A program made the translations under genes and the position numbers. A stretch of 64,000 bases of DNA, from NCBI GenBank assembly GCA_963718875.1, contig OY970378.1, positions 132,396 through 196,395 on the forward strand, in the 5' to 3' direction. This stretch comes from Candidatus Parcubacteria bacterium. Lineage in GTDB: Bacteria; Patescibacteriota; Saccharimonadia; UBA4664; JBIOIQ01. Position 1 is the stretch's first letter, and every line of letters begins with the position of its first letter. This document shows positions 1,389-61,033 of the stretch, piece after piece. The notes under the pieces were generated by a model. The model did not search any database. It had not been told where the DNA came from and was given only the letters and a program-made list of their open reading frames with translations.

Positions 1389-1417
1389 AGATCTCTCCAC
1401 TTTGGTCGAGATGACAT
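1389..1417 (+). repeat. REP-like palindromic element, K-subtype (AGATCTCTCCAC...GTCGAGATGACA)
   Basis: Near-identical copies at 53150-53177 and, in reverse orientation, 6829-6857. Hairpin ATCTC/GAGAT. Confidence 0.6.
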
Positions 1418-2940: not shown

Positions 2941-3882
2941 TTTTCCTGTCTCCAATTGATTAATTAAGTCAGCTTGGTGGAGGGCAGCAGCGGTGTTTTG
3001 CTGTCTTAGGTAAACTTCGCGCAGTAGCTTGTGGCTCTCTAGGTTGGCGGGGTCGGTTTGAGCTGCTTTAGCTAAGGCTGTTTCGGCTTCTTTAAGTTTG
3101 GGTGGGTCGTTGGGGGCCAAAATAAGGTTGATTCGGCCTAAAAGGACTTGATCGGGAACCATTAGTTGAGGCTGATTTATTAAAATGGCTCTAGAGCTGC
3201 GTATAAGCCCGCTAGAGTAGAGTTGGTATGCCAGCGCTGGTTTCCCTTGCTTGGCTTGTTTAAGCGTGTGTAGGGCTCGAGGTGAGGTTACAGAGCCTAT
3301 CAAATCGTTCAAACGCACAGTCATGTTGTTAACGGCATAACATAAGCCAAGTTGCACTTGAGCTTCTGGGTTGTGAGTGTCTATGGCTAGGGCAGTTCGA
3401 GCGGCTATTATTGCACTATCCCCTCTCCCCTGTTCTAGCTCAAGCTCGGATTTGGCTATCAGGGCTGCTTGGGATTTATTGGCCTGAAGTACGTCTTCGA
3501 GTACCTTTCCAGCTTGCTTTAGCTGCCCTGATTGACGGTAGATGGTGACAATCTGCATGCCACTCTCCCCTATCGGTAATGTTTTCAGCTCGCGAGCGGC
3601 ATCATTTGGTCGATTAGCCTTAAGGTAGGCGCTGGCTAACAACTGCTTGTAGTTGTGGTTGGCTGGAGCCAGAATAGTAGCTACCTGAAAATCAGCGATG
3701 GCCTGAGTAGTGTCACCCTGACTTAGTCTGGTTTGTGCTTGGGCTACAAGTTTGGCAGCCCGAGCATTAGATATGGGCGTAGCTACAATTATCAGGAGAG
3801 CTATTAGTGCGCTGACTCCGATTATTATGTACCACATATGGGCTTTATTTTTGGGCTTGGCTGATTGCTTGGATTTGCTCAT
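2935..3882 (-). CDS. membrane-anchored tetratricopeptide (TPR) repeat protein
   Basis: 315 aa. N-terminal TM helix WYIIIGVSALIALLIIVA, then repeated A/L/Y-rich TPR-like helices. Confidence 0.6.
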   Translation of the reverse strand: MSKSKQSAKPKNKAHMWYIIIGVSALIALLIIVATPISNARAAKLVAQAQTRLSQGDTTQAIADFQVATILAPANHNYKQLLASAYLKANRPNDAARELKTLPIGESGMQIVTIYRQSGQLKQAGKVLEDVLQANKSQAALIAKSELELEQGRGDSAIIAARTALAIDTHNPEAQVQLGLCYAVNNMTVRLNDLIGSVTSPRALHTLKQAKQGKPALAYQLYSSGLIRSSRAILINQPQLMVPDQVLLGRINLILAPNDPPKLKEAETALAKAAQTDPANLESHKLLREVYLRQQNTAAALHQADLINQLETGKI

Positions 3883-6496
3883 CTAACTTTGATAGTAACA
3901 ATTTGGCCTCGACTTGGCTATCACGAGTTTCTTGAACTACGCTGGCGGGGGCGGAAGAAACGTAACGCTCGTTGGCCAGGCGGGCGTCTAAACTATCTAG
4001 GTAAGCCTGCTTATCTGCCCTCATTTTTGACAACCTGGCTTTTCGGGCACTAATCAACGCATCGTCGGCTTGAATCCATGCTGGAGCGCTACTCCCGAGG
4101 TACAGACCACTCCCCTGCTCCACTAGTTTGATCTCTGTTACCCTTGCAAGATGTTTAATTAAATCTGCGTATTGAACCAGTTTTGGCTCAGTTGTGAGGA
4201 TGGTGGGCCTATCTAGCTTTTCTTCCGTTGCAATGGCTCTGATTTGGAGGGTTGTTTCTTGAATACGGTTAAAATCTTCAACTAAGCTTATATTAGCCGA
4301 ATTGTTAGAATCCGATTCCGGCCAAGGGCTAACAATCAGATCTGCTTTTTGCCACGGCATATTTTGCCAAATGGCCTCTGTTACGAAAGGCGCGGTGGGA
4401 TGAAGCAGTTTTAAAACTGTCTCTAACCCGTAAACTAAGAGGTCGTGATTAGGTGAAATCTTGGATGCCTCAACATACCAGTCGGCAAAATCGTCCCAAA
4501 GCAGAGCGTAAACCATCTGGCCGGCTTCGGAAAAGCGGTAGCTATCGATTGCTTTGGTAACATTCTGGACTGCTTGGTCGAGTTGGTATTTGATCCAGTG
4601 GTCGGCTGGGGCGTTGAGCTGTGGTTCGGCAGGTGTGTAATCGGCTGGCAGTTTGGCCAAGATGAACCTGGCAACATTCCATAGTTTGTTACAAAAATTG
4701 CGGTAGCCTTCAATTTTTTCTTTTCCGAGTGAGCCATTATTCCCGGGTGTAATCCCAATGGTTAGTGCTAAACGAAGAGCATCGGTGCCGTATGTGGCGG
4801 TGTATTCCAGAGGATTAATAACGTTTCCTTTAGATTTACTCATTTTTTTACCTTGTGCATCGTTGACCATGCCCCATAGGTAGACGGTTTTAAAGGGAGG
4901 CAGTTTAAAGCGATAATAACTAAACATCACCATCCGGCTCACCCATAAAAATATAATGTCGCGAGCAGTAGCCATTACGCTGGTGGGGTAAAACTGCTCA
5001 AAATCACCGGTGGCCATGAGGGTAGCGTAAGGCCATTGACCGCTAGAAAACCAAGTATCGAAGGTATCGGTTTCGGTCTCGTAATTATTTTTGCCATAGT
5101 AATCAATGGCTTCATCCTCATTGAAGGCAATGATGTAGGGTTTTTTGGTGGTATCAGAAGAGGCATTGTAATAGATGGGGATAGTTATTCCAAACCAGTT
5201 TTGGCGGCTAATGTTCCAATCGCGTAGGTTTTCCATCCAATCCAAGTAGACTTTTTCGTAACGCTTGGGGACTATTTTGATCTCACCATCCTTAACGGCC
5301 TTGATGGCTGGCTGTTTGAGTTCGGCCACCTTAAGCCACCACTGCTCAGTAACTAGTGGCTCTATTAGGGTGCCACAGCGGTCGTGAAAGGAAACGCTAT
5401 GCTTGTAATCCATTTCAACATGGTCAATTAACCCCCTTTCCTCAAGGTCATGGGCAACTTGCTCTCTAGCTTCGGCTACAGGCATGCCGGCGTATTTACC
5501 TGTTAGGTTGGTTAGCAGTCCGTCTGTCCCAATGGCTTGTTTGACCTCCAGGTCGTGACGTAACCCCATTTCCCAGTCGTTGGGGTCATGTGCAGGAGTA
5601 ACCTTAACTACACCTGTACCAAAGGCTGGGTCAACAAAGTCGTCTGCAATAACCTTGAGCTTGAATTTTCCAAGCAGGCCTTCGGCTTCAATCTCTTGGC
5701 CAATATACTGCGTGTAGCGCTCGTCCTTGGGGTTTACAGCAATGGCGGTATCACCAAATTTTGTTTCAGGCCGGACAGTAGCAAGTATAAACGGGCCGTA
5801 TTTGATGTAATATAACGGGTCAATTTGCTCACGATACTTGATTTCTAGGTCGCTAAAGCCGGAGCGGCAATGAGGGCACCAGTTAACTATGCGATTGCCG
5901 CGGTAAATTAAGCCATCATCGTGCATTTGCTTGAAGGTTTCATAGACGGTACGGACGATGTCGTCGTCCAAGGTGAACTTAAAACGGCTCCAATCGACGC
6001 TAAAGCCCAGGCTGCGGAGTTGAGCTGTTACATTGGCCATGTTCTTTTTTGTAAAAGCTAAGGCACTTTGATAAAACTGCTCACGACCGAGGTCAAATCG
6101 ACTTTTACCCTCTTTGGCCAGCTCGCGCTCGTAGACCACTTGAGTTTCGATACCAGCGTGGTCAGCTCCAGGGAGCCACAAGGTTGGATCCCCTTTCATG
6201 CGGTGGTATCTAGCCATAATGTCCTCGACCACATACATAACGTGGCCAGTGTGCAGGTCGCCGTTGGCATTAGGCGGTGGCATGATTACACTAAACGGCT
6301 CTCGATCAGGTATTGAGTTGTGAGTTGTGAGTTGTGAGTCATTTGTGCTTATCTCTCGACTCGCTTGAACTGAGCCTGTCGAATGGTCGACTCTTGACTC
6401 TTGACTCGAGGTGGGCTTGAAGGCGCCAGAATCTTCCCACATTTTATAAATGTCGGCCTCGTATTTGGCCGGTTCGTAACTTTTTGGTAACTCCAT
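3845..6496 (-). CDS. valS: valine--tRNA ligase (ValRS)
   Basis: 883 aa. HIGH motif (PPPNANGDLHTGH), KMSKS motif (KMSKSKGN), class I aaRS editing and anticodon-binding regions, C-terminal coiled coil. The N-terminus carries an extra ~30-aa low-complexity insert encoded by a tandem-heptamer palindromic segment (6300-6420). Confidence 0.92.
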   Translation of the reverse strand: MELPKSYEPAKYEADIYKMWEDSGAFKPTSSQESRVDHSTGSVQASREISTNDSQLTTHNSIPDREPFSVIMPPPNANGDLHTGHVMYVVEDIMARYHRMKGDPTLWLPGADHAGIETQVVYERELAKEGKSRFDLGREQFYQSALAFTKKNMANVTAQLRSLGFSVDWSRFKFTLDDDIVRTVYETFKQMHDDGLIYRGNRIVNWCPHCRSGFSDLEIKYREQIDPLYYIKYGPFILATVRPETKFGDTAIAVNPKDERYTQYIGQEIEAEGLLGKFKLKVIADDFVDPAFGTGVVKVTPAHDPNDWEMGLRHDLEVKQAIGTDGLLTNLTGKYAGMPVAEAREQVAHDLEERGLIDHVEMDYKHSVSFHDRCGTLIEPLVTEQWWLKVAELKQPAIKAVKDGEIKIVPKRYEKVYLDWMENLRDWNISRQNWFGITIPIYYNASSDTTKKPYIIAFNEDEAIDYYGKNNYETETDTFDTWFSSGQWPYATLMATGDFEQFYPTSVMATARDIIFLWVSRMVMFSYYRFKLPPFKTVYLWGMVNDAQGKKMSKSKGNVINPLEYTATYGTDALRLALTIGITPGNNGSLGKEKIEGYRNFCNKLWNVARFILAKLPADYTPAEPQLNAPADHWIKYQLDQAVQNVTKAIDSYRFSEAGQMVYALLWDDFADWYVEASKISPNHDLLVYGLETVLKLLHPTAPFVTEAIWQNMPWQKADLIVSPWPESDSNNSANISLVEDFNRIQETTLQIRAIATEEKLDRPTILTTEPKLVQYADLIKHLARVTEIKLVEQGSGLYLGSSAPAWIQADDALISARKARLSKMRADKQAYLDSLDARLANERYVSSAPASVVQETRDSQVEAKLLLSKLDEQIQAISQAQK

Positions 6497-6588
6497 AGTC
6501 AGTTAAGTATAGCTAAGTAAGGCCTTAGGCTGCAAATGAACGCAAGCTAATTTTCATTTGATCAAGTTTAAGCCTCCATTGCCTACTT

Positions 6589-6630
6589 GTCATCCTGAAC
6601 CGTCAGCTGATGGTTGTTTCAGGATCTCTT
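6589..6630 (-). repeat. REP/RPE-like palindromic element (family 1, AGATCC-hairpin-GGATGAC)
   Basis: GTCATCCTGAAC...GTTTCAGGATCTCTT is the reverse complement of AAGAGATCCTGAAAC...GTTCAGGATGAC. Matches copies at 26768, 32790, 36929 and others. Confidence 0.6.
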
Positions 6631-6654
6631 AAACTAATTTTTTACATGTTCAAC

Positions 6655-6790
6655 AGATCCAAAAGCGCAGTTATGTTTCAAAATGCTGAAAGCGTTTTTT
6701 CTGCGTGAAAACATAAGCGTTATGCAAATTGGCTAACTTTTAATCTTTGAATTTTGGAACTTTTTGCTTGTGAACTAATTTGATGGTTGG
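6655..6790 (+). repeat. direct repeat copy 1 (about 110 bp, terminator-like hairpin AAACGCT-CAA-AGCGTTT plus CATAA-GCG-TTATG)
   Basis: About 85% identical to 7141-7270 (shared ...GTGAAAACATAAGCGTTATGCAAAYTGGCTAA...). Confidence 0.6.
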
Positions 6791-7140
6791 TGTGCTACTT
6801 AGATTAGATTTAAGTATGTTGTCATCTCGACTCACGTGGAGAGATCTTTCTGGATGGGTTTTTGCACCGGTGCCTCCCGTGCAATGCAAATTAGCCTCAT
6901 TCTGCAATTATCGAGGAGGGGTTTGTGCGCCAAAATGATGTATTCTGGCTTATTTTATACTTAAGAGTATACATGCACGGGAGGCACCCGTGTCTTGACC
7001 GAGAAGCCGAAAGAAAGTTACGAACGCATCTGGGAAAAACACAGCATAGCAATAGCGTACTTGATCGGTGGGTTAGAGATAATTTAAGGGATGAAGCGCG
7101 TCGAGTTGCGGCAGAAAGAGGTGAAGCGGCGTAGAGCTTG

Positions 7141-7270
7141 CAACAGATTTAAAATAGCCATTATGTTTTAAAACGCTCAAAGCGTTTTTTTAGTGTGAAA
7201 ACATAAGCGTTATGCAAACTGGCTAAATTATAATCATTGAGTTTTGTAAGTTTTGTTTGTTGACCTGATC
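7141..7270 (+). repeat. direct repeat copy 2 (partner of 6655-6790)
   Basis: See copy 1. Together they bracket an about 350-bp segment containing a K-type REP (6829-6857) and an 18-bp inverted repeat (6861-6879 / 6977-6995). Confidence 0.6.
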
Positions 7271-7544
7271 TAAGGTTTCAACCAGCATTTTTTGTAACTT
7301 CAAGACCTGGTCTTGACTAACGCGTTTAAAACTTGGGTCAGGCCTCAGGCCCGCCCGCGGGGGTCGTGGACCCCTACGGACGGACACTGAGGGTTTCTCA
7401 CCGAGCGCAGTAGAGCCACGTTCGGCAAGATTGGAGCCCGCAGGCCCTGGTTCGGAAGATGGGGGTTCCTTGCCTGGGCCTGCGGGGGAATTGCCGGTCG
7501 AGTCACGCATAGTGTGTACCCGCCGGCAAGATGGTTGCGCCGGA

Positions 7545-7949
7545 CTAGGCGGGGTTGGAGATGATGCTGAAGCGTAGCTTGACCTTTCGGTCGCCAGCCA
7601 CGGCTTCAACCTCCCACAACAGGCTCCGCGGACGGCTCTCGCCATCTCCGTGGATCAAGAGAGAGTTGAAGAAGCTTTCGCAAAGGCTGCCGACCGAGAA
7701 GTCGGCGGTCAGAAGTGCTTCGCCGATGGAGTCGCCGACGAATCGGAGGGCTTCGCCGAGAGAGCCGCAGGCTTGACGCTGACGCCACACCCCATTGACC
7801 GTATCGTCCGCGAAAACCATGGCTCCGGTTACGCCTTGGTAGGCATCAACGAGCCATGCCCACTCTGTGTCGGTGAGCTCTTGGTACTTCAGCAGCTCGC
7901 TGATTTTCGGCGTGACTACTTTGATGGGCTTTACTGCGACAGCTACCAT
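7545..7949 (-). CDS. hypothetical protein (GC-rich islet)
   Basis: 134-aa ORF with AAGGAGG RBS 5 nt upstream of ATG. Non-repetitive composition, unlike the overlapping alternative-frame ORFs. Confidence 0.5.
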   Translation of the reverse strand: MVAVAVKPIKVVTPKISELLKYQELTDTEWAWLVDAYQGVTGAMVFADDTVNGVWRQRQACGSLGEALRFVGDSIGEALLTADFSVGSLCESFFNSLLIHGDGESRPRSLLWEVEAVAGDRKVKLRFSIISNPA

Positions 7950-8219
7950 TGCATGTGCCTCCTTGAAGGCCTATCGTCCGATGGATTCGGGCGGGGCTTG
8001 CGACTCACATTGCTTGTGAAGCACAAAACCCGACCGAATTTGAATCTGGTGAATCCTAGCCCGATATTTAAAGAGCAATCAACCTAAGATTGAATGTCTA
8101 ACATATTAGCATAAGTGGCATGGAAAGTCAATGGCTGCATCTGGGATATTAAGGATTTGAGATTAGTAGATGGTAGGCAGGGTTCTGAAGCGATCCTCCT
8201 ATCTACTACCTACCAGTCC

Positions 8220-9401
8220 CTAGTCCCTTATTGAATGCGAGTGCATTTGCATGCTCGAGTCAGCCACCAGGAGCTTAGGGTCGGTAGTCATGCCATCGTG
8301 TGCATACCAGTAACCCAGCGCGGCGATCATGGCGGCGTTATCCGTGCAGAGGTTCATAGCGGCATAATTAATTTCTATAGGTAAACGCTTTTTGAGCTCG
8401 GTGCGTAAGGCTTGGCTGGCCGCCACGCCACCAGCAATGACAACAGATTTAGGGCTGTGTCGCTCGTAGGCCACCATCATGCGGTCAACCAGGGTGTCGA
8501 TGACAGTTTTTTGAAATGAAGCAGCCACGTCGTTTTTTTGCTGATCGTTTAAAAGGGGAGCGAGGGTGTGGGAGGCAGCAGTTTGGTCGAGACCGAGCAT
8601 GGTTTGAACTTGACGCAACACGGCGGTTTTAACTCCGCTAAAGCTGTAATCTAGACTATCTTTACCAAGCTTGGCTTTGGGGAAAGTAAAAGCATTGGGG
8701 TCGCCATTTAAGGCAGCTTTTTCTAGCGCCGGTCCACCTGGAAATCCTAGCCCGAGTAATTTAGCAATTTTGTCGAACGCTTCGCCAGCGGCGTCGTCGC
8801 GAGTTTGACCTAAAACTTGGTAGTTGTGGTGGCCATGGAACAGAACGATTTGCGAGTGTCCGCCAGATACAATCATAGCTAGCAGTGGGAAGTCGGGCGG
8901 CTGCCATTCGGATTTAACATTTAACATTTGACCTTTGATGTGTGACGAGTCTAAGAAGTTTGCATAAACGTGGGCTTCTACATGGTTGATGGCATAAAGT
9001 GGTTTGTGGTGGAGCTCGGCCAGGGTTCGTGCTGTCAATGTTCCGATTAAGAGTGACCCGAGTAATCCCGGTCCGGCTGTGACGGCAATTCCGTCAATTT
9101 GATCCCACAGAGTGTTGTCATTCCTGCGAAGGCGGGGATCTAGATCGCTGGATCCTCGATCCGGAGCGCTATGGCTTCCGGTCAAGGATGACAATTGGGG
9201 GAAAGCCTGCTCGAAGGCTTTTTCTACCACGGGAAGCATAGCCTCAATGTGGCTACGGGCGGCAATTTCGGGTACGACACCTCCAAATTGCGCGTGAATG
9301 TCAATTTGCGAAGCCACAATGTTGGATAAAATGTGGCGCCCATCTTTTACGACAGCGGCAGCGGTTTCGTCACAACTGGTTTCAATCCCAAGGATATTCA
9401 T
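8220..9401 (-). CDS. tsaD: tRNA N6-adenosine threonylcarbamoyltransferase TsaD (Kae1/Gcp family)
   Basis: MNILGIETSCDETAAAVV N-terminus, AVTAGPGLLGSLLIG, HVEAH metal-binding motif. Contains an extra ~27-aa insert (PQLSSLTGSHSAPDRGSSDLDPRLRRNDNT) not present in typical TsaD. Confidence 0.9.
   Translation of the reverse strand: MNILGIETSCDETAAAVVKDGRHILSNIVASQIDIHAQFGGVVPEIAARSHIEAMLPVVEKAFEQAFPQLSSLTGSHSAPDRGSSDLDPRLRRNDNTLWDQIDGIAVTAGPGLLGSLLIGTLTARTLAELHHKPLYAINHVEAHVYANFLDSSHIKGQMLNVKSEWQPPDFPLLAMIVSGGHSQIVLFHGHHNYQVLGQTRDDAAGEAFDKIAKLLGLGFPGGPALEKAALNGDPNAFTFPKAKLGKDSLDYSFSGVKTAVLRQVQTMLGLDQTAASHTLAPLLNDQQKNDVAASFQKTVIDTLVDRMMVAYERHSPKSVVIAGGVAASQALRTELKKRLPIEINYAAMNLCTDNAAMIAALGYWYAHDGMTTDPKLLVADSSMQMHSHSIRD
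9124..9184 (+). repeat. REP/RPE-like element inserted in frame inside tsaD
   Basis: GGATCC-TCGATCCGGAGCGCTATGGCTTCCGGTCAA-GGATGACAA matches the intergenic family-1 elements (for example 50672-50736, 32843-32873). It coincides with the TsaD insert. Confidence 0.6.
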
Positions 9402-9575
9402 TGGGTTAGTTTAACCCTTCGATTTCACTCAGGGCAAGCATTTACCTTCCATTTGTGTCATTTAATCATGCTGAGTTGCTTTAGAAGGGCAGACATAAAA
9501 GTGGTTGTGGTTGCTATCTGGGGTTGAGGCTAAAGAAGTCGTACTTTTTTAGCCTCAATAAAGTACGACTTCTTT

Positions 9576-10643
9576 TTAGTCAATGTGTTTGCGCTTAACA
9601 TCGAGCTTTTCTTTGGCGTGAACCAGGCTATAAGGGAGTGGTTTAAAAACATAGTCTTGAACGGGCATATAGAGCTCAATATAGCCCCCAAAGCTTTTTT
9701 TAAACGCGGAGTAGCCGTAGCCATAGTGGCCGGGGTGAAAGTTGGAGTCGCCTACAACGCCCCAAAAGTTGTACTTAGTAGCGCCGTGATCACGAGCGAA
9801 TTTCATAATCTCAATGTGCATGAACTGGGGAGCGTGCAGTTCGCGCTCAATGTCATAGGATGCACCATGGAGGTAAGAGGCTTCTTGCCCGAAAGAAGCA
9901 ATTAAAGCACATGCTAGCGGTTGGCCGTTAAGTTCGGCTACAAAGACCTTTTCAAGTCCGGCCGGAGCCGTGACGGCAAACTGTTTGCGATAATAGTCGG
10001 GAGAAAAAGTACCGATGCCGCCTTTGCGAGCGTCGAGAGCGGCCAGCATTGTAAGAAATAGTTCCAAATCCTTAGGTTTATCAGATGAGCGGACTGTAAC
10101 TCCGGCTTTGGCGGCTTTGCGGAGGTAGCGGGGGACGTTACTACGCATGCCGTGTTCGCCAAGCCACTGCAGCAACTGGTCGTCAGATTTGTCTGCAATA
10201 TCGACTACCCAGGCTCGTCCGACCTGGACAAACCAACGCCCGCCAGGCTTAAACCCCAATTCTGGGAAAAGAGCAGCTTCGGAACTGTCGTGGAGTAGAG
10301 CTGGATCAAGCCGTAGGTAAGCGATACCGGGCTGGGTTTGGCAGTAAGTAGTAAGGGTGGTGAGTACATTACGCATCAGTTCCTGGTCGGAATAGTTTAG
10401 TAACGGACCGCGCGGCGAATAGTAGAATTGACTGAAACGATTACGCTCATGTATTAGCAAAACAGTGGCCACAAGCTGAGCTTGATTGTATAAGCCCAAA
10501 CGCTGGATTGATTTGCCTAAGCTCTCTTGAAACGTGCCCCACTCCCAGGTGTGGTAGAACTTGGCGTAAGCTGCTACCTCAGGTCGAGCTAGGAACTGTC
10601 CCAGCTCCGTTGGTGAACTCAAAGGCTGCAGTGTTAACTTCAT
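9576..10643 (-). CDS. FemXAB-family peptidoglycan bridge aminoacyltransferase
   Basis: 355 aa. Fem/MurM-like core (GATKYNFWGV, GYGYSAFKKSFGG). Confidence 0.75.
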   Translation of the reverse strand: MKLTLQPLSSPTELGQFLARPEVAAYAKFYHTWEWGTFQESLGKSIQRLGLYNQAQLVATVLLIHERNRFSQFYYSPRGPLLNYSDQELMRNVLTTLTTYCQTQPGIAYLRLDPALLHDSSEAALFPELGFKPGGRWFVQVGRAWVVDIADKSDDQLLQWLGEHGMRSNVPRYLRKAAKAGVTVRSSDKPKDLELFLTMLAALDARKGGIGTFSPDYYRKQFAVTAPAGLEKVFVAELNGQPLACALIASFGQEASYLHGASYDIERELHAPQFMHIEIMKFARDHGATKYNFWGVVGDSNFHPGHYGYGYSAFKKSFGGYIELYMPVQDYVFKPLPYSLVHAKEKLDVKRKHID

Positions 10644-11901
10644 TTGCGATCATTGTAGCATGGGATTCAGTAATGTTTGGGCCTGTTGGTAGGTTAATAA
10701 TACGGCTAGCAACAGATTCAGCTATAGGGCAACCGCTCGGCTGATAATTGATAGTAATGTAGTCAACCCCTGCCGGATAAATGGGCGGTGAGTACCAATT
10801 GCTAACGTAAATTGCTTTGGCTGCTAGGGTAGCGACCAAATAATCGCGTAGTTCTGTCGATTGGCAGATTACTGGGTATTTGATATAGGCGGTAGATTGC
10901 TTGGCAGGAGTGAGTCCGGGGTTAGCTTCAATTTTTGATTGGTATAGCTCAGCCAACTTGAGTCGGTGGTTGAGGTTGGGGTTGATATGATTTAAGGCAT
11001 CTAAAACAATTTTGGCGTGTACCCCTGGAAGCGTGGCGAGGGTATGGCTGGGTATCCCGCCGGCGTACTCGGGTTTGGCAACTGCCTGTTTGAGTAATCG
11101 CAGAACTTGTAACAAACGTCGCAAGGGGTTGCTGAGCAAGGTAGGGATTTTGCGTAAAAGCTGGCGTAAAGCAGGATATATCAACCACAAAAAGCTTTGC
11201 CAGCGAGGTAGCTCAGGCAGATCGTGGTAATCTGACTCGACCTCACGAATCAGATGGGGGTTATTAACCAATAAGGCGCCACCCAGTTTGGTTGAAAGGC
11301 TTTTTTCTATGCCAAAACTAATAATGGCTGCATCGCCAAATGTGCCTAGAGCTTGATTGTTTATATTTAGTCCAAGAGCATGAGCACAGTCCTCGATTAA
11401 AAGGAGGCCATGTTTTTTGGCAAGCTCCTGAACGTGTTCTAAGGCTCCTGGAAGGCCGAACGTATGTTGAAGCATAATTACTTTGGTTCGAGGCGTGATG
11501 TGGCTTGTAAGGCTTTCTAGCGAGGCTGAGAGGGTATCTGGATCTATGTCGACGTATACTGGTACTAATCCGGCCCACAAAATTGGGTTAATAGCTGTTA
11601 CACAAGTAAAGCTTTGGACAAGCACTTCGCTACCAGTAGTTAGGTTGAGCGATTTTAAAAACAAGTAAATAGCGGTGCGACCGTTGGCGGTTAAAAACCA
11701 TTGGTGTGGTTTATGGCTATTGGCGAAATAGAGGTCGTCTAAGGCCTTTTTGAGCTGGTTAAATGGCCGCGAGTTGTTGAAGCCCGGAAAGTTGAGGGTA
11801 AGGCCAATGTAGGTTGAGTTGCGCATAAAGTTAACTATAGCAAAGAAGTCAGACTTGGTTGAACGGAAAGAAGTACGACTTGTGAGCGTGTACATAAGCA
11901 T
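10579..11901 (-). CDS. DegT/DnrJ/EryC1/StrS-family PLP-dependent aminotransferase (start uncertain)
   Basis: Conserved aminotransferase core including IEDCAHALG-type motif. The long N-terminal extension suggests the true start is an internal Met. Overlaps the downstream fem gene by 65 nt. Confidence 0.7.
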   Translation of the reverse strand: MLMYTLTSRTSFRSTKSDFFAIVNFMRNSTYIGLTLNFPGFNNSRPFNQLKKALDDLYFANSHKPHQWFLTANGRTAIYLFLKSLNLTTGSEVLVQSFTCVTAINPILWAGLVPVYVDIDPDTLSASLESLTSHITPRTKVIMLQHTFGLPGALEHVQELAKKHGLLLIEDCAHALGLNINNQALGTFGDAAIISFGIEKSLSTKLGGALLVNNPHLIREVESDYHDLPELPRWQSFLWLIYPALRQLLRKIPTLLSNPLRRLLQVLRLLKQAVAKPEYAGGIPSHTLATLPGVHAKIVLDALNHINPNLNHRLKLAELYQSKIEANPGLTPAKQSTAYIKYPVICQSTELRDYLVATLAAKAIYVSNWYSPPIYPAGVDYITINYQPSGCPIAESVASRIINLPTGPNITESHATMIANEVNTAAFEFTNGAGTVPSST

Positions 11902-23290: not shown

Positions 23291-23338
23291 TTATTGCCTG
23301 AGCCTGTCGAAGGCCCTTCGACTATGCTCAGGGAGTAA
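23291..23338. repeat. family-2 palindromic element (ATTGCCTGAGC-CTGTCGAAGGCC-CTTCGAC-TATG-CTCAGG)
   Basis: Full palindrome. Half-copies at 36884-36910, 37027-37054, 53104-53131, 55067-55145. Confidence 0.55.
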
Positions 23339-23443
23339 TCGCAAAACACAAAAAGAGGCCACTCGTGGCCTCTTTTTGTGTGCTGATCATAAAGTTGTGA
23401 TGGAGGGCCGCCTGAGTGGCGGCCCTCCATGCGTGGGCGTGGT

Positions 23444-26767: not shown

Positions 26768-26798
26768 AAGAGATCCTGAAACAAGTTCAGGATGACAC
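26768..26798 (+). repeat. REP/RPE-like element (family 1, minimal form AAGAGATCCTGAAAC-AAG-TTCAGGATGACA)
   Basis: Perfect 8-bp hairpin flanked by AGATCC and GGATGACA terminal motifs. Confidence 0.65.
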
Positions 26799-32674: not shown

Positions 32675-32765
32675 CAAGTAAAGGGAGCCTCCCTTTTAGT
32701 GGTTATGTTAGCATTTCGAGCTCATTTCTTAAGTTAGGGAGCCTCCCTCGAATTTGTTATGCTCC
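32675..32765. repeat. paired palindromic motif element (2x GGGAGCCTCCC), second locus
   Basis: Same arrangement as 2845-2940. Marks the left boundary of the GC-rich cassette array. Confidence 0.55.
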
Positions 32766-32789
32766 GACCCAAGGCTTCAAACTCCACGT

Positions 32790-32873
32790 TGTCACCCTGA
32801 ACCGTCGGCTGACGGTTGTTTCAGGATCTCTTAATCTGGACAAGAGATCCCGGATCGTGGTCCGGGATGACAA
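32790..32873. repeat. inverted pair of family-1 REP/RPE-like elements
   Basis: Reverse copy GTCACCCTGAAC...TCAGGATCTCTT, then forward copy AGAGATCCCGGATCGTGGTCCGGGATGACAA. Confidence 0.6.
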
Positions 32874-32937
32874 GAAGAAGGTTGAAAACTTAGGTCGGGC
32901 CCCGCACCAGCCTTGGTAGACTTGGTGCGGGACGGGG

Positions 32938-33384: not shown

Positions 33385-33394
33385 GGGATCTGTT

Positions 33395-33811: not shown

Positions 33812-33978
33812 GGGTTATCTATCCTTTGGGTTGTGGATCGTGTACACGGGTTGCATCGTTGCTTCCCGACCTAAGGTTTCAAAGCTCTTTTTAAGACCTG
33901 ATCTTCGATAGTTGAAAGCTTGGGTCGGGGTTCCGCCGTGCGCTGGTTAGGGCGCAGGCAGCGGAACCTGTGGATGGG

Positions 33979-34383: not shown

Positions 34384-34548
34384 GATGTTCTTCCTTTGAT
34401 CGTCGGTACACGGGTAAGCACTGTTGCTTCCCGACCCAAGACTTCAATCTTATTTACACGGGTGGAACCGATGTAGGATTTGAAAACTTAGGTCGGGGTT
34501 CCGCCGCTGTAGCCGGAGCTACAAACGGCGGAACCTGGGAATGGGTGG

Positions 34549-35226: not shown

Positions 35227-35349
35227 TGAAAACCATCCTTTTTCGGTTGTCGATCGGGTACACGGGTAAGCACTATTGCTTCCCGACCTAAGACTTCAAA
35301 ACTCTTTGTTGTCACCTTGTACTTGATTCAGGGTCTCTTAATCTGGACA

Positions 35350-35380
35350 AGAGATCCCGGATCGTGGTCCGGGATGACAA
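35350..35380 (+). repeat. family-1 REP/RPE-like element (AGAGATCCCGGATCGTGGTCCGGGATGACAA)
   Basis: Identical to 32843-32873. Preceded by a degenerate reverse copy. Confidence 0.6.
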
Positions 35381-35443
35381 TTTAGGGTTGAAAACTTAGG
35401 TCGGGCCCCGCATCAGCCTTGGAAGACTTGATGCGGGACGGGG

Positions 35444-35989: not shown

Positions 35990-36118
35990 GGTGGCCGTCC
36001 TTTTTGGGTTGTCGGGTACACGGGTAAGCACTGTTGCTTCCCGACCTAGGGCTTCAAACGAGGTTGAAAACTTAGGTCGGGCCCCGCACCAGCTGGGTAG
36101 GCAAGGTGCGGGACGGGG

Positions 36119-36928: not shown

Positions 36929-36986
36929 AGAGTTCCTGAAAGGTAGAAGCGTCCCGCAAGGGCGGGACTTTCTCTTCAGGATGACA
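36929..36986 (+). repeat. family-1 REP/RPE-like element with nested hairpin (GTCCCGC-AAG-GGCGGGAC)
   Basis: AGTTCCTGAAAG...TCTTCAGGATGACAA. Confidence 0.55.
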
Positions 36987-50671: not shown

Positions 50672-50736
50672 AGAGATCCCGGATCCGGAGCGCCAAGCTA
50701 TGCAATGGTTCGGCTTGGCTTCCGGTCCGGGATGAC
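50672..50736 (+). repeat. family-1 REP/RPE-like element with nested hairpin
   Basis: AAGAGATCCCGGA-TCCGGAGCGCCAAGC...GCTTGGCTTCCGG-TCCGGGATGACG. Closest relative of the copies embedded in tsaD and polA. Confidence 0.65.
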
Positions 50737-50745
50737 GTTTTTTTA

Positions 50746-53149: not shown

Positions 53150-53177
53150 AGATCTCTCCACAGGGTCGAGATGACAG
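53150..53177 (+). repeat. REP-like K-subtype element
   Basis: AGATCTCTCCACAGGGTCGAGATGACAG, matches 1389-1417. Confidence 0.6.
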
Positions 53178-58225: not shown

Positions 58226-61033
58226 ATGGCTCAAAAGAAACTAATATTAGTTGACGGAAATGCATTGTTCCACCGGGCGTATCACGCTATTCCACATTTA
58301 ACGAACTCTGAAGGGTTGCCGACTAATGCAGTGTATGGGTTTACTAATATTTTGCTCAAAGTTTTTAATGATTTAAAGCCAGATTACGCTATTGTGGCTT
58401 GGGACAAATCAAGTAAAACCTTTCGAGATGAGTTGTATCCACAATATAAAGCGACTCGTACAAAACAGCCGGATGATCTGTATGCCCAAATACCCTTGGT
58501 AAAAGAGCTAGTGGCAGCGCTTAATTTACCCTTTGTAGAACTCGAAAACTATGAAGCCGATGACGTTATAGGGACGCTGGCTGCTCAAGCCAAAGGAGTT
58601 GAGACGATTGTGGTTACAGGCGATCGCGATGAATTACAGCTTGTGAGTGATACTACCAAAGTGGATCTGTATAACCCTATGACAGGGGCGAGCGTGCTGT
58701 ATGATCTTCCGGCGATGCAAGAGCGTTATGGGATGACGCCGGCTCAGTTTATTGACCTCAAGGCGCTTAAGGGCGATGCGAGCGATAATATTCCGGGGGT
58801 GCCCGGAGTCGGTGAAAAAACGGCTATGGATCTAATCCAGCGTTATGGCAGTTTGGACGGCGTCTATGAGCATTTGGATGAGAACAAGGGTAAGCTCTTA
58901 GAACGATTAACCGATAACAAAGAACTAGCTTACTTGAGTCAAAAACTTTCAACTATTGTTTGCGACGCACCAGTGACTTTAGAGCTGGATAAAGCGGAAG
59001 TGGGCCGTTATAACCGTGAAGCTACACATGAACTGTTTCGGAGACTGGGTTTTAAAAGCTTGTTGGCAAAACTGCCAGCTGAACTAGCCATGGCAGAGGT
59101 TGGTGCTCCGCCAAGTTTGTTTGACTCAAAAACACCGCAAAAGTTGCGCTCACACATAGACGATACCAAATACATTTGCGTTAAAAGCGTGCAGCAGCTG
59201 GATGATCTGCTGAAAAAAATGACTACAGTTAGTGAGTTTGCGGTAGATACTGAAACGGATGATATAGCTGTAATATCGGCCAAGTTGGTGGGGATAGCAG
59301 TGTCCTTTAAAGAGGCGGAAGCTTACTACATACCGGTTGGGCATGAAACAAGTGAGGGGGGCAAGGATAAATCCCAGCTTGATCTAGAACTGGTGATTAC
59401 AAAGCTTAAGCCAGTGCTAGAAAACGAAAAAATTGGAAAAATTGGACATAATCTAAAGTTCGATTATCAGGTACTTGCGACTCATGGTGTTGTTCTCAAA
59501 CCAATAGTCTTTGATACTATGATTGCGGCGTTTTTGATGAATCCGTTAATGAGATCGCAAACTTTGGGTGACTTAGCATATTCCGAACTAGGGATAGACA
59601 TGATACCGATTGAGGAAATGATAGGTAAAGGCAAAGGGCAGGTTTCGTTTGACCGCGTAACAGTAGAAGATGCTACGCGTTATGCTGCAGAGGATGCTGA
59701 TATAAGCTGGCGGCTGTACCAAAAAATGCAACCAGAATTGGTTAAAACCGGATTCGATGATTTAGCACGTCAAATGGAGTGGCCGTTGATACCACTTTTG
59801 GGAGACATGGAGCTGGCCGGTATTACACTTGATAAAGACTTTTTAAAACACTTCAATAAAAGCATTAGCGCTCGGATTTTGGAACTGGAGGAAGAAATTT
59901 GGAAAGTGGCAGGGGAAAAGTTCAACATTGCTTCTCCAGGGCAGTTGGCCAGAATCTTATTTGAAAATTTAGGGATTGATCCCCAGGGCATTAAAAAAGG
60001 TAAAACGGCTTATTCAACAGCTGCAACTGAGTTGGAGAAAATGCGCCATTTGCACCCCATTATTGAGATGATCTTTGAGTATCGTGAGTTAGTAAAGCTT
60101 AAGAACACTTACGTAGATGCACTGCCGGAGATGGTAAGTTCTGTAGATCATCGGATTCATACCAGTTTTAGCCAAACAATTGCCCAGACTGGTCGGTTGA
60201 GTTCATCAAATCCGAATTTGCAAAATATTCCGGTAAGGACGGAGTTGGGTCGGGAAATTCGCAAGGCTTTTGTGACGCCACCTGGGCGTGTGTTTGTGGG
60301 AGCAGACTATTCCCAAATTGAGTTGCGAGTGGCAGCAGCACTTTCTAAGGATGAGGCCATGATAGAAACCTTTAAAAGTGGCGTTGATTTGCATCAACAA
60401 ACAGCAGCCGAGTTGTATGGTGTGTCTCTTGATAAAGTTACCAAAGACCAACGGAGTGCCTCCAAAACAATTAATTTTGGAGTTCTGTATGGGATGAGTG
60501 CCCATGGGTTGAGCGTCGCTACAGGGATGGCTCGCGATGAGGCACTAGGATTTATAAAACGCTATTTTGAAGTCAGACCAAAACTAGCTCAATATATAGA
60601 GGAGACCAAGGAGTTTGCACGCAAAAACGAGTACACAGAAACCCTGTTTGGGCGCAAGCGGCCATGTCCAGAAATTAACTCGAACAATCACATTGTGGCG
60701 GCTGCAGCCGAAAGAATGGCAGTAAATGTGCCAATTCAGGGAACGGCAGCTGATATTTATAAGCTGGCTATGATTGCACTTGTGCCAAAGCTGGGGATGG
60801 CGGGTTTGTCATCCCCGATCGGAAGCGATAGCGCTCCGGATCCGGGATCCACCACCCGCCTTGGAACTCAACTGCTGTTGCAAATCCATGATGAACTGAT
60901 AGCTGAAACCGATGAGGATAAGGGAGTTGAGGTGGCCAAAGTTATGAAAGAGGTCATGGAAAATGTTTACGATATCGGCGTCCCTTTGGCGGTTGATACA
61001 GCTGTAGGTAAAAGCTGGGGACAGCTAAAATAA
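58226..61033 (+). CDS. polA: DNA polymerase I
   Basis: 935 aa. 5'-3' exonuclease N-terminus, 3'-5' exonuclease, polymerase motifs A/B/C (DYSQIELR, RSASKTINFGVLYG, QIHDEL). Contains an extra ~20-aa insert (GMAGLSSPIGSDSAPDPGSTTRL) before motif C. Confidence 0.95.
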   Translation: MAQKKLILVDGNALFHRAYHAIPHLTNSEGLPTNAVYGFTNILLKVFNDLKPDYAIVAWDKSSKTFRDELYPQYKATRTKQPDDLYAQIPLVKELVAALNLPFVELENYEADDVIGTLAAQAKGVETIVVTGDRDELQLVSDTTKVDLYNPMTGASVLYDLPAMQERYGMTPAQFIDLKALKGDASDNIPGVPGVGEKTAMDLIQRYGSLDGVYEHLDENKGKLLERLTDNKELAYLSQKLSTIVCDAPVTLELDKAEVGRYNREATHELFRRLGFKSLLAKLPAELAMAEVGAPPSLFDSKTPQKLRSHIDDTKYICVKSVQQLDDLLKKMTTVSEFAVDTETDDIAVISAKLVGIAVSFKEAEAYYIPVGHETSEGGKDKSQLDLELVITKLKPVLENEKIGKIGHNLKFDYQVLATHGVVLKPIVFDTMIAAFLMNPLMRSQTLGDLAYSELGIDMIPIEEMIGKGKGQVSFDRVTVEDATRYAAEDADISWRLYQKMQPELVKTGFDDLARQMEWPLIPLLGDMELAGITLDKDFLKHFNKSISARILELEEEIWKVAGEKFNIASPGQLARILFENLGIDPQGIKKGKTAYSTAATELEKMRHLHPIIEMIFEYRELVKLKNTYVDALPEMVSSVDHRIHTSFSQTIAQTGRLSSSNPNLQNIPVRTELGREIRKAFVTPPGRVFVGADYSQIELRVAAALSKDEAMIETFKSGVDLHQQTAAELYGVSLDKVTKDQRSASKTINFGVLYGMSAHGLSVATGMARDEALGFIKRYFEVRPKLAQYIEETKEFARKNEYTETLFGRKRPCPEINSNNHIVAAAAERMAVNVPIQGTAADIYKLAMIALVPKLGMAGLSSPIGSDSAPDPGSTTRLGTQLLLQIHDELIAETDEDKGVEVAKVMKEVMENVYDIGVPLAVDTAVGKSWGQLK
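60806..60850 (-). repeat. family-1 REP/RPE-like element inserted in frame inside polA (reverse orientation)
   Basis: Plus strand TTGTCATCCCCGATCGGAAGCGATAGCGCTCCGGATCCGGGATCC is the reverse complement of GGATCCCGGATCCGGAGCGCTATCGCTTCCGATCGGGGATGACAA. Confidence 0.6.

What the first reader, a model, noticed from the sequence alone, without database searches (positions are those of the whole stretch)
9124..9184. REP/RPE-like palindromic elements inserted in frame into essential genes (tsaD, polA, probably valS)
The intergenic repeat family AGATCC-(hairpin)-GGATGACAA has at least 12 intergenic copies in this window. It also occurs inside the tsaD ORF (9124-9184) and, reverse-complemented, inside polA (60806-60850). 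In both proteins the element lies exactly where the sequence has a 20-27-aa insert relative to standard homologs. TsaD has the insert between the EQAF and IDGIAVTAGPG blocks. PolA has it just before the QIHDEL motif. The reading frame is preserved. This is the behaviour described for Rickettsia palindromic elements, which insert in frame into protein-coding genes. valS has a comparable ~30-aa N-terminal insert encoded by a palindromic segment with (GTGAGTT)x3.5 and (GACTCTT)x2 tandem heptamers (6300-6420).
Basis: partly seen in the sequence, partly recalled or inferred. Interest (0 to 1): 0.8.

Follow-up and report, generated by a model that had tools for sequence, protein, structure and literature searches.

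The report
Hairpin repeats inserted in essential genes
A small Saccharibacteria genome carries a family of short hairpin-forming DNA repeats, and two copies sit in frame inside the essential genes tsaD and polA, adding floppy surface loops to the proteins; this is known from Rickettsia and other bacteria but I found no report of it for this phylum.

Summary
The core observation is real. The window (Candidatus Saccharibacteria, 49% GC) holds 13 loci of a hairpin repeat. Read head-first, each module is (T/C)GTC | 8-bp stem starting AT | loop | stem | CTC or CCA. A strict descriptor finds 12 modules against 0.17 in shuffles.

- **tsaD:** an 80-nt dimer with the tags outward lies at 9115-9194.
- **polA:** a single module lies at 60807-60851.
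- **Similarity:** the two share 46 nt at 87% (E 3e-7) and are read in the same orientation and frame (LSSLTGSHSAPDRGSS and LSSPIGSDSAPDPGST).
- **Empty sites:** the closest relatives lack exactly these segments (net +81 nt and +63 nt).
- **Structure:** AlphaFold models place both in low-confidence loops on otherwise confident folds.

The anatomy fits the CGTC-tagged REP superfamily of Di Nocera 2013. That superfamily includes Rickettsia RPE-4/RPE-6 and Neisseria dRS3/NTS. One tsaD module differs from the NTS consensus at 3 of 28 positions.

Other Saccharibacteria carry different REP dimers at the same tsaD and polA loops.

The valS insert and its heptamer arrays are real, but the segment is not palindromic and is not shown to belong to this family.

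Verdict: a new member of a known kind, of moderate interest.

The parts
8220..9401 (-). tsaD gene (393 aa; relatives without inserts are 342-344 aa)
   Evidence: ORF; PDB TsaD matches at E 4e-76; Pfam TsaD on the homologues
9108..9204 (-). Extra segment of tsaD relative to the closest relatives (net +81 nt, 27 codons). It encodes FPQLSSLTGSHSAPDRGSSDLDPRLRRNDNT(L).
   Evidence: DNA alignment A2 with L081 and L082; TsaD alignment A1; AlphaFold pLDDT 50-68 here against 93-96 in the flanks
9115..9194 (.). REP dimer with the tags outward (TTGTCA...TGACAA), made of two different hairpin modules (a heterodimer, 'HH' in Di Nocera's terms)
   Evidence: Sequence; DNA fold -17 kcal/mol, z -3.4; the same two-module architecture occurs in metagenome contigs L084, L085 and L087 (A4)
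9149..9193 (-). Module 1: TGTC ATCCTTGA ccggaagccatagcgctccgga TCGAGGAT CCA
   Evidence: Strict descriptor; 87% match to the polA copy
9116..9143 (+). Module 2: TGTC ATTCCTGC gaag GCGGGGAT CTAG. It differs from the Neisseria NTS consensus CGTCATTCCCGCGMAVGCGGGAATCYRG at 3 of 28 positions.
   Evidence: NTS consensus from PMC11893778
58226..61033 (+). polA gene (935 aa)
   Evidence: ORF; Taq and Klenow matches
60796..60858 (+). Extra 63 nt (21 codons) of polA just before the QIHDEL motif. It encodes (M)AGLSSPIGSDSAPDPGSTTRL.
   Evidence: DNA alignment A5 with L090; absent from 120 relatives; AlphaFold pLDDT 47-51 against 90-95 in the flanks
60807..60851 (+). REP module TGTC ATCCCCGA tcggaagcgatagcgctccgga TCCGGGAT CCA, flanked by a 6-7 bp inverted repeat GGCGGGT/ACCCGCC
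   Evidence: (fold -17.4 kcal/mol, z -3.65)
1389..1416 (-). Intergenic module of the ATCTCGAC type, between two tRNA-Ser genes
   Evidence: (I7)
6588..6628 (+). Intergenic module upstream of valS
6820..6847 (+). Intergenic module of the ATCTCGAC type
   Evidence: (I7)
26770..26797 (-). Intergenic module TGTC ATCCTGAA cttgt TTCAGGAT CTC
   Evidence: the identical module lies inside tsaD of L088
28822..28864 (-). Intergenic module between convergent ORFs
32789..32873 (.). Intergenic REP dimer with the tags outward
   Evidence: (D6, D13); fold -22.9 kcal/mol, z -4.5; one module matches the published SRM pattern
35296..35380 (.). Intergenic REP dimer, one arm degenerate
36930..36986 (-). Intergenic module with a nested hairpin in its long loop
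46277..46327 (-). Intergenic module with a CGTC tag, downstream of a decayed IS30 copy
   Evidence: (A3)
50673..50737 (-). Intergenic module with a CGTC tag and a long nested loop
   Evidence: fold z -4.9
53150..53176 (-). Intergenic module of the ATCTCGAC type
6305..6412 (-). Lineage-specific N-terminal insert of valS (about 31-37 aa), with heptamer arrays at 6389-6407 and 6314-6339. It is not a hairpin and is not shown to belong to the REP family.
   Evidence: shared arm motif with the L094 polA insert (A7)

Best explanation
**What it is.** The segments in tsaD and polA are copies of a non-autonomous, hairpin-forming repeat of the CGTC-tagged REP kind. This is the superfamily that includes Neisseria dRS3/NTS and Rickettsia RPE-4/RPE-6. 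Each module has an unpaired tag (TGTC or CGTC), an 8-bp stem whose first two pairs are A-T and T-A, a variable loop that is often itself a hairpin, and a 3-nt tail (CTC or CCA). Modules occur singly or as inverted pairs with the tags outward.

**How the inserts arose.** Copies are dispersed through the genome, almost always between genes. Two copies landed in, or were retained in, essential genes. They could persist because the net insertion is a multiple of three, the frame in use has no stop codon, and the site is a permissive surface loop. They are most likely translated as 21-27 extra, probably disordered, residues that leave the fold intact.

**Shown.** Repeat anatomy; significance against shuffles; similarity between intragenic and intergenic copies; absence from the closest orthologues; strong bias toward intergenic DNA; low-confidence loops in confident models; different REP dimers at the same loops in other Saccharibacteria.

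**Inferred.** Spread probably involves single-stranded hairpin DNA and an enzyme acting in trans that is encoded outside this window. My best guess, at about 35%, is an Ssn-type GIY-YIG nuclease of the kind shown to bind and cut NTS-like hairpins. A HUH/RAYT-like enzyme is the alternative. Translation of the inserts and their near-neutrality are also inferred.
For: - **Family is real.** 12 strict modules against 0.17 in shuffles; 26 against 3.2 with the loose descriptor.
- **Intragenic copies belong to it.** tsaD and polA share 46 nt at 87%, E 3e-7. polA matches the intergenic copy at 50675-50693 at E 1e-5 (alignment A3).
- **Conserved composite unit.** The tsaD dimer has the same two-module build as elements in unrelated metagenome contigs (A4).
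- **Empty sites.** tsaD gains 81 nt against L081 and L082. polA gains 63 nt against L090. None of 120 PolA relatives has the segment.
- **The tsaD gain is derived.** In the TsaD tree the window is sister to P0002, inside a clade that lacks the insert.
- **Hairpins.** DNA folds give z -3.4 (tsaD), -3.65 (polA) and -4.5 to -4.9 (intergenic copies).
- **Loops.** The TsaD model has pLDDT 88 overall and 50-68 in the insert. The PolA C-terminal model has 86 overall and 47-51 in the insert.
- **Intergenic bias.** Only 2 of 13 REP loci lie in ORFs, although ORFs cover about 77% of the window (P 6e-6).
- **Published definitions.** The tag, stem, tail and tags-outward dimer rules come from PMC3733652. 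That paper already lists DNA polymerase I and tRNA synthetases among REP-bearing genes. Module 9116-9143 matches the NTS consensus with 3 of 28 mismatches.
- **Recurrence in relatives.** CGTC/TGTC-tagged dimers lie at TsaD site 1 in L088 and L091 and at site 2 in L091; a shared CGTC-tagged single module lies at both sites in L092. L093 and L094 carry such elements at the same PolA loop. L091 tsaD and L093 polA, from one sample, share about 75 alignable nt.
Against: - No candidate mobilising enzyme is in the window. I found no Y1_Tnp in about 50 ORFs scanned with Pfam.
- The published SRM search pattern matches only 2 modules.
- Many loops are far longer than the 4-5 nt given for CGTC REPs.
- Only one genome of this lineage is available, so mobility is inferred from comparison and not observed.
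- Translation of the inserts is not demonstrated.
- The flanks at the tsaD site differ from the empty site (AFPQ...TL against AKLA), so the event was not a clean cut-and-paste.
- CGTC-head tripeptide signatures are not enriched in the inserts of TsaD relatives at the protein level (0.68 against 0.59 per 100 aa).
Confidence: 0.8

Rival explanations
1. The elements are classical MITEs: deletion derivatives of an insertion sequence, with terminal inverted repeats TTGTCA/TGACAA, moved by a DDE transposase such as the IS30 copy in the window.
For: The dimers have inverted ends. An IS30-family transposase, NF033563 at 110.8 bits, lies at 45208-45900 with its C-terminal part at 45936-46187, and a module lies 90 nt downstream at 46277.
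Against: No target-site duplication flanks any dimer. Single modules are as common as dimers. Stems differ between copies while staying paired, which is not what copies of one master element look like. The IS30 gene is frameshifted. The modules fit the REP definition, not IS30 ends.
Confidence: 0.06
2. The intragenic copies are kept because they do something. They could act as mRNA or DNA hairpins that tune expression. Or they could be recognition sites for an Ssn-type single-strand nuclease that limits replacement of these essential genes by incoming DNA during natural transformation.
For: NTS hairpins reduce integration of transforming DNA through SsnA in Neisseria (PMC11893778). The same tsaD and polA loops carry REP dimers in several Saccharibacteria lineages. 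Di Nocera et al. noted an excess of REPs in replication and repair genes.
Against: The closest relatives do without the inserts. The insert sequences differ between lineages. No ssn gene was found in the window. Recurrence can be explained by selection allowing only these loops.
Confidence: 0.1
3. The inserts are old lineage-specific loops that resemble the intergenic repeats by chance, or the intergenic repeats derive from the genes.
For: Both sites vary in length in many relatives.
Against: E 3e-7 between two unrelated genes. The same architecture occurs in unrelated contigs. The descriptor finds 12 modules against 0.17 in shuffles. The window's insert is absent from its sister sequences.
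Confidence: 0.02
4. The segments are not translated. They would be bypassed by the ribosome or removed from the mRNA, as with hairpin-forming 'byp' elements in some yeast mitochondria.
For: The segments form strong hairpins within coding sequence.
Against: All 11 intragenic inserts seen at DNA level here and in relatives are in frame and free of stop codons (window tsaD, polA and valS; L088; L089 x2; L091 x2; L092 x2; L093; L094). Bypassing would not require that. No take-off/landing codon pair or intron signature is evident, and Rfam reports nothing there.
Confidence: 0.02

Closest known systems
CGTC-tagged REPs (Di Nocera, De Gregorio & Rocco 2013, PMC3733652), including Rickettsia conorii RPE-4 and RPE-6
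   Same: Unpaired tag CGTC or TGTC. 8-bp stem whose first two pairs are A-T and T-A. 3-nt tail (CCA or CTC). Inverted dimers with the tags outward, often made of two different modules. Mostly intergenic. Occasional in-frame copies in genes, with DNA polymerase I and tRNA synthetases among the hosts listed. No transposase next to them.
   Different: Many loops here are 18-42 nt with a nested hairpin, where the family description gives 4-5 nt. The host is a Saccharibacteria (Patescibacteria/CPR) genome of about 1.2 Mb, a phylum not among those reported. Several stem variants coexist within 64 kb.
Neisseria NTS/dRS3 and Ssn-related motifs (SRM) with the GIY-YIG single-strand nuclease SsnA (PMC11893778, 2025)
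   Same: Module 9116-9143 differs from the NTS consensus at 3 of 28 positions. The metagenome relatives L084 and L085 carry near-perfect NTS cores. The repeats are oriented hairpins with a conserved 5' tag.
   Different: Only 2 modules match the published SRM pattern. No ssnA-like gene is in the window. [quoted passage not shown]
Rickettsia palindromic elements RPE-1 (Ogata et al. 2000, as summarised in PMC10969869)
   Same: Palindromic repeats inserted in frame into unrelated housekeeping genes. They add a peptide judged compatible with the fold, in a small reduced genome.
   Different: RPE-1 is about 100-150 bp and encodes a conserved peptide. The elements here are 45-80 nt and the peptide depends on the frame in use (LSS..., CHP..., VI...).
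GTAG REPs/REPINs with RAYT transposases
   Same: Short hairpins with an unpaired tag, inverted dimers, spread thought to go through single-stranded DNA.
   Different: The tag is TGTC/CGTC, not GTAG. No RAYT (Y1_Tnp) gene was seen in the window.

Membership tests
CGTC-tagged REP superfamily (PMC3733652) | Unpaired terminal tag CGTC (variants TGTC, CCTC) | tested here: met
   All 12 strict modules start with TGTC (10) or CGTC (2)
CGTC-tagged REP superfamily (PMC3733652) | Stem of 8-9 bp whose first and second pairs are A-T and T-A | tested here: met
   8-bp stems with at most 1 mismatch, all starting AT (one AC); 12 observed against 0.17 in shuffles
CGTC-tagged REP superfamily (PMC3733652) | Loop of 4-5 nt | tested here: not met
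   Loops are 4-6 nt in 4 of 12 modules and 18-42 nt, with a nested hairpin, in 8. The paper notes loops of other lengths in some CGTC-1 and CGTC-3 families.
CGTC-tagged REP superfamily (PMC3733652) | 3-nt unpaired tail, consensus CCA | tested here: met
   Tails are CCA (tsaD module 1, polA, 46277), CTC (most copies) or CTA
CGTC-tagged REP superfamily (PMC3733652) | Dimers mostly with the tags outside ('HH'), often heterodimers | tested here: met
   The three dimers (9115-9194, 32789-32873, 35296-35380) have tags outside and unlike stems. Definition read.
CGTC-tagged REP superfamily (PMC3733652) | Mostly intergenic, with rare in-frame intragenic units | tested here: met
   11 of 13 loci are intergenic although ORFs cover about 77% of the window (P 6e-6)
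NTS/SRM-Ssn system (PMC11893778) | Match to the SRM search pattern HGTCWYN(0-2)YYVSBRHN(0-5)WNVSBRGN(0-2)RNCYNB | tested here: inconclusive
   2 matches (32843-32872, 35350-35379) against 0.25 in shuffles, maximum 2. Long loops exclude most modules. Module 9116-9143 matches NTS with 3 of 28 mismatches.
NTS/SRM-Ssn system (PMC11893778) | A small GIY-YIG (cd10448) ssnA gene in the genome, usually flanked by the repeats | tested here: inconclusive
   None in this 64-kb window or in the fetched loci, by tblastn with remembered YhbQ/YazA-like queries and by Pfam scans. The other 1.1 Mb of the genome could not be read.
NTS/SRM-Ssn system (PMC11893778) | Sequence-specific cleavage of the hairpin as single-stranded DNA | not testable with these tools
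   Needs purified enzyme and oligonucleotides
Rickettsia palindromic elements (RPE) | Palindromic repeat present both between genes and in frame inside housekeeping genes, absent from orthologues | tested here: met
Rickettsia palindromic elements (RPE) | Insert lies on the protein surface and is compatible with the fold | tested here: met
   Low-pLDDT loops between confident elements in both models. These are predictions, not solved structures.
MITE moved by a DDE transposase | Target-site duplication flanking terminal inverted repeats, and a parent IS with the same ends | tested here: not met
   No duplication at any dimer. The only IS in the window is a decayed IS30.
GTAG REP/REPIN-RAYT | GTAG tag and a RAYT (Y1 transposase) gene flanked by REPs | tested here: not met
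   The tag is TGTC/CGTC. No Y1_Tnp hit among about 50 ORFs.

The most novel reading that the evidence does not exclude
In Saccharibacteria, several distinct hairpin-repeat families colonise the same few loops of essential proteins again and again: two loops in TsaD, the loop before motif C in PolA, and the N-terminus of ValRS. The families include CGTC REP dimers, an 84-nt element with 7-nt periodicity, and composite elements with heptamer-array arms around an NTS-like core. Under this reading the recurrence reflects targeted insertion or homing rather than survival alone, for example an Ssn-type single-strand nuclease acting at pre-existing hairpins in a naturally competent organism. It would make these repeats a main source of the lineage-specific protein length variation seen in this phylum.
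Probability: 0.25. Interest if true: 0.7.

Novelty: new member of a known kind. Interest (0 to 1): 0.45.

Why it matters
**Selfish repeats in a minimal genome.** The finding shows that an ultra-small CPR genome tolerates a dense population of selfish hairpin repeats, about two modules per 10 kb. Such repeats can lengthen essential enzymes without destroying them.

**Link to a known system.** The repeats are tied by sequence to the NTS/dRS3 hairpins, for which a partner nuclease and a role in transformation were recently shown. This gives a concrete hypothesis to test in Saccharibacteria, which can be transformed naturally (my own knowledge, not checked here).

**Natural map of permissive sites.** The same loops are hit in different lineages. 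These loops are therefore candidate permissive insertion sites in TsaD, Pol I and ValRS.

**Annotation.** These inserts generate spurious peptide similarities and length outliers in CPR proteins.

Tried and rejected
- **Genome-contig scan with TsaD.** It returned mostly distant phyla and not the source genome. It was useful only to name the phylum and as 1.3 Mb of control DNA.
- **Exact look-ups of the window's TsaD.** No contig on record and no accession, so the rest of the 1.19-Mb genome could not be read.
- **First hairpin scripts.** A bug, then an over-strict rule. They were replaced by the descriptors.
- **Long-loop descriptor on control loci.** Too many chance hits, about 2-3 per 10 kb, so I tightened it.
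- **Protein-level signature test.** REP-head tripeptides (RDD, RND, GMT, VIx, CHP, LSS) are not enriched in the TsaD inserts of relatives (0.68 against 0.59 per 100 aa). I therefore do not claim that most relatives' inserts derive from this family. DNA was checked case by case instead.
- **Rfam at gathering thresholds.** Only four tRNAs; nothing at the repeats.
- **Plasmid collection, distant mode.** No match.
- **GIY-YIG search.** A regex and tblastn found nothing in the window or the loci.
- **Published SRM pattern.** Only 2 matches.
- **Literature.** No paper in the held library describes REPs or MITEs in Saccharibacteria or Patescibacteria.
- **Hammerhead idea.** I considered that the REP tag and stem might be hammerhead stem I, because one loose hit at 56044-56065 is part of a hammerhead-like motif. 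No other module is followed by CTGATGA...CGAAA, so I dropped it as an explanation of the family.
- **Covariance model.** I did not build one. The descriptor-against-shuffle tests and the BLAST E-values already answered the question.
Full report
**Source and genes**

The window has 49% GC. Its TsaD is recorded on a single contig of 1,189,924 bp. The best named relatives of its TsaD and PolA are Candidatus Saccharibacteria or Saccharimonadales.

- tsaD is 8220-9401 on the minus strand (393 aa).
- polA is 58226-61033 on the plus strand (935 aa).
- valS is 3845-6496 on the minus strand (883 aa).

**The repeat family**

- GGATGACAA occurs 7 times against 0.5 expected.
- A loose descriptor finds 26 hits against a mean of 3.2 in 100 dinucleotide-preserving shuffles.
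- A strict descriptor requires the tag, an 8-bp stem with at most one mismatch, a loop of 3-45 nt and a tail starting C[CT]. It finds 12 modules against 0.17, maximum 2, in 300 shuffles.
- Counting degenerate copies there are 13 loci.
- The stems differ between copies but stay paired: ATCCTGAA/TTCAGGAT, ATCCCGGA/TCCGGGAT, ATCCTCCG/CGGAGGAT, ATTCCTGC/GCGGGGAT.
- Long loops usually hold a second hairpin.
- Three loci are inverted pairs with the tags outward: 9115-9194, 32789-32873 and 35296-35380.
- As single-stranded DNA these fold far better than shuffles, with z from -3.4 to -4.9.
- Only 2 of the 13 loci lie inside ORFs, although ORFs cover about 77% of the window (binomial P 6e-6).
- No target-site duplication is visible at any dimer.

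**The copy in tsaD**

- Against T. maritima TsaD, residues 70-100 are extra. The structure's residues 69 and 70 are contiguous where the window has the insert.
- The two closest relatives are 75% and 71% identical. At DNA level they read GC-AAAACTGGCT-TGGGAT or GC-CCAACTGAAC-TGGGAT.
- The window reads GC-TTTCCCCCAA-TTGTCATCC...GGAATGACAA-CACTCTG-TGGGAT. The net gain is 81 nt, or 27 codons.
- In a neighbour-joining tree on 342 core columns, the window's TsaD is sister to P0002 inside a clade that lacks the insert. The gain is therefore derived.

**The copy in polA**

- The module at 60807-60851 is 87% complementary over 46 nt to 9149-9194. blastn-short gives E 3e-7 within the window.
- It also matches the intergenic copies at 50675-50693 (E 1e-5) and 46309-46326 (alignment A3).
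- Against Taq polymerase, 19 residues are extra just before the QVHDEL motif.
- None of 120 relatives has the segment.
- A 72%-identical relative lacks exactly 63 nt, window 60796-60858.
- Both genes read the element in the same orientation and frame: LSSLTGSHSAPDRGSS in TsaD and LSSPIGSDSAPDPGST in PolA.
- Three of six frames of the tsaD dimer and four of six of the polA module are free of stops. An open frame is therefore not rare, but it is required.

**Structure**

- The AlphaFold model of TsaD has mean pLDDT 88 and pTM 0.87. The insert has pLDDT 50-68, between a helix and a strand with pLDDT 93-96.
- The model of the PolA C-terminal 377 residues has pLDDT 86. The insert has 47-51, between a long helix and the strand that carries QIHDEL, both at 90-95.
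- Both inserts therefore look like flexible surface loops. These are predictions, not solved structures.

**What kind of element it is**

Di Nocera and colleagues (PMC3733652) defined CGTC-tagged REPs as follows:
- an unpaired tag CGTC, often TGTC;
- an 8-9 bp stem whose first two pairs are A-T and T-A;
- a 3-nt tail, consensus CCA;
- dimers mostly with the tags outside, which they call HH;
- no dedicated transposase;
- occasional intragenic copies, with DNA polymerase I and tRNA synthetases among the hosts.

They equate CGTC-1 with Neisseria dRS3, and CGTC-1 and CGTC-4 of R. conorii with RPE-6 and RPE-4.

The window's modules meet the tag, stem, tail, dimer and distribution criteria. They depart in loop length. 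The same stem, ATCCCGGA...TCCGGGAT with tail CCA, occurs in a Bosea control locus.

A 2025 paper (PMC11893778) extends dRS3 to the 28-nt NTS, CGTCATTCCCGCGMAVGCGGGAATCYRG. It shows that NTS-like hairpins are bound and cut, as single-stranded DNA only, by a small GIY-YIG nuclease, SsnA. The ssnA gene is usually flanked by these hairpins.

- The tsaD module 9116-9143, TGTCATTCCTGCGAAGGCGGGGATCTAG, differs from NTS at 3 of 28 positions.
- The paper's degenerate SRM pattern matches only two modules.
- I found no ssn-like or RAYT-like gene in the window. The rest of the genome could not be read.

**Related sequences elsewhere**

A metagenome scan for the long-loop subtype returned five short contigs. 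Three of them carry the same two-module unit as the tsaD insert: TGTCATCCTCGAYCGGAAG...CTCCGGATCgGGGATCCA, a spacer, then GATTCCCGCyTTCGCGGGAATGACA. The tsaD insert is therefore a copy of a conserved composite element.

Among 120 TsaD relatives, 94 have 3 residues at the first site and 17 have 10 or more. The insert-bearing sequences are scattered over the tree. I checked several at DNA level:
- **L088.** It carries TGTC ATCCTGAA cttgt TTCAGGAT CT plus a second inverted module at the same site. It is read in another frame (CHPELVSGS). Its first module is identical to the window's intergenic copy at 26770-26797.
- **L091.** It carries CGTC- or TGTC-tagged dimers at both variable sites. One ends GACAAATTGGGGG, like the window's GACAATTGGGGG.
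- **L092.** A CGTC-tagged module is shared between its two sites.
- **L089.** It is syntenic with the window (FemAB-tsaD-valS). It carries a different 84-nt element, 90% identical, at both TsaD sites, and fragments of it at the ValRS N-terminal site.
- **L093 (PolA).** It has a CGTC dimer at the same loop. About 75 nt align with the TsaD insert of L091, which comes from the same sample.
- **L094 (PolA).** It has an NTS-like core flanked by heptamer arrays at that loop.

The same loops are thus occupied by different repeats in different lineages. A crude protein-level test found no general enrichment of REP-head tripeptides in relatives' inserts. I therefore claim recurrence only for the cases checked at DNA level.

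**valS**

- The insert is real. Residues about 28-63 are extra against T. thermophilus ValRS. Nearly all of 120 relatives lack it, including one at 65% identity.
- The heptamer arrays are real.
- The segment does not fold better than shuffles (z +0.2) and has no significant copy in the window.
- It shares the 15-nt run GAGTCAAGAGTCAAG and the arm-centre-arm layout with the L094 polA insert, whose centre is an NTS-like REP.
- My reading is that it is a decayed composite element. That is an inference.

**Mechanism and rivals**

The best-supported account is a selfish hairpin repeat that is filtered by selection. It persists between genes, and only exceptionally within genes, when it is in frame, stop-free and in a permissive loop.

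The enzyme and the single-stranded route are inferred from the family's published biology.

I weighed four rivals:
- a DDE-type MITE, which lacks target duplications here, and the only IS in the window is a decayed IS30;
- a retained function, which is possible but not needed because sister lineages lack the inserts;
- chance resemblance, which the statistics exclude;
- ribosomal bypass or excision, which would not require all 11 inserts examined to be in frame and stop-free.

**Novelty**

In-frame REP and RPE insertions have been known since 2000, and polymerase I and tRNA synthetases are listed hosts. I found no report for Saccharibacteria or Patescibacteria in the searchable library. This is a new member of a known kind. 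The recurrent use of the same loops is the part most worth following.

Noticed in passing
window 56040-56123 (+): A hammerhead type III-like motif with every core nucleotide in place: GAGCUGUC | AUCCACU-aagua-GUGGAU | CUGAUGAG-UCCUU[31 nt]GGAC-GAAAC-GGCUG. Rfam RF00008 scores 30.1 bits, below the gathering score of 48.5, with E 3e-4 in a 1-kb search. The RNA fold gives a three-way junction with z -2.95. Its stem I looks like a REP module (TGTC ATCCAC...GTGGAT CTG).
   Followed up: partly
window 55591-55668 (+): A tRNA-like or tmRNA-like acceptor and T-arm. RF00023 scores 44.8 bits against a gathering score of 47, with E 8e-16 in a 3.3-kb search. ARAGORN called neither a tmRNA nor a tRNA here. 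It could be the 3' part of ssrA or a remnant attachment site.
   Followed up: partly
window 54500-57500: About 3 kb without a convincing ORF: overlapping ORFs in all frames, GC up to 61%, no Pfam-bearing gene. It holds the two RNA-like motifs above and several repeats. It may be a decayed integrated element next to a tmRNA-like site.
   Followed up: partly
window 45208-46187 (+): An IS30-family transposase split into two ORFs: 45208-45900 (NF033563, 110.8 bits, profile positions 1-168 of 267) and 45936-46187 (the C-terminal part). This is a frameshifted, probably dead IS copy. A REP module lies 90 nt downstream.
   Followed up: partly
window 18873-20301 (+): A phosphoglucomutase/phosphomannomutase gene is split into two overlapping ORFs. 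Domain I is in 18873-19373 and domains II-III are in 19342-20301. The relative L092 has one 451-aa gene. This is a frameshift, a sequencing error or a pseudogene.
   Followed up: no
window 8912-8929, inside tsaD (second variable loop, residues 151-167): The window's TsaD also has a 17-aa segment at the second variable site, where basal relatives have 3-4 aa. It is encoded partly by a heptamer array, (ATTTAAC)x2.6. A 17-nt exact match lies in intergenic DNA of the closest relative, L082 2026-2042 (E 0.004). Heptamer arrays also build the valS insert and the L089, L092 and L094 inserts.
   Followed up: partly
window 6497-8219: The spacer between tsaD and valS is 1.7 kb here but 169 bp in the syntenic relative L089. 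It holds a 138-nt direct repeat (6651-6788 and 7141-7278, 78% identical), two REP modules and three ORFs with no Pfam or NCBIfam hit.
   Followed up: partly
window 32700-36200: A tandem set of paralogous small ORFs with no Pfam hit. REP dimers and other conserved repeats separate them (families D2-D7, D13, D16 and D17). The repeat unit is about 2.5 kb (32880-32999 against 35386-35505, 87% identical).
   Followed up: partly
window 23313, 36886, 37029, 55120 and inverted at 53103: A further repeat family, GGCCTTCGACTnnGCTCAGGC. It often forms hairpins with an adjacent inverted copy, as at 23298-23344. A 14-nt piece of it matches the centre of the valS insert (E 0.02). Other small hairpin families are AAGGGAGCCTCCCT (2852, 2907, 32681, 32735) and CCAGAGGTTAAACCTCTGG (32562, 37844, 43170, 61627).
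   Followed up: no
TsaD relatives, alignment A1: Every TsaD relative with an insert of 7 or more residues at the first site begins it with Phe (AF...), except P0089. This holds even though the inserts have different sequences and arose in different branches. Insert-free proteins have A-x-L-x-W there. I have no tested explanation. It may be a structural need for a hydrophobic cap, or sequence carried in by the elements.
   Followed up: partly
window 9536-9575 and 11842-11881: A 40-nt inverted repeat (78%), AAGTCGTACTT...AAGTACGACTT, brackets the FemAB-DegT gene pair. The second arm lies inside the annotated 5' end of ORF 10579-11901, whose true start is probably further downstream (the relative's DegT is 419 aa against 440 aa here).
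   Followed up: no
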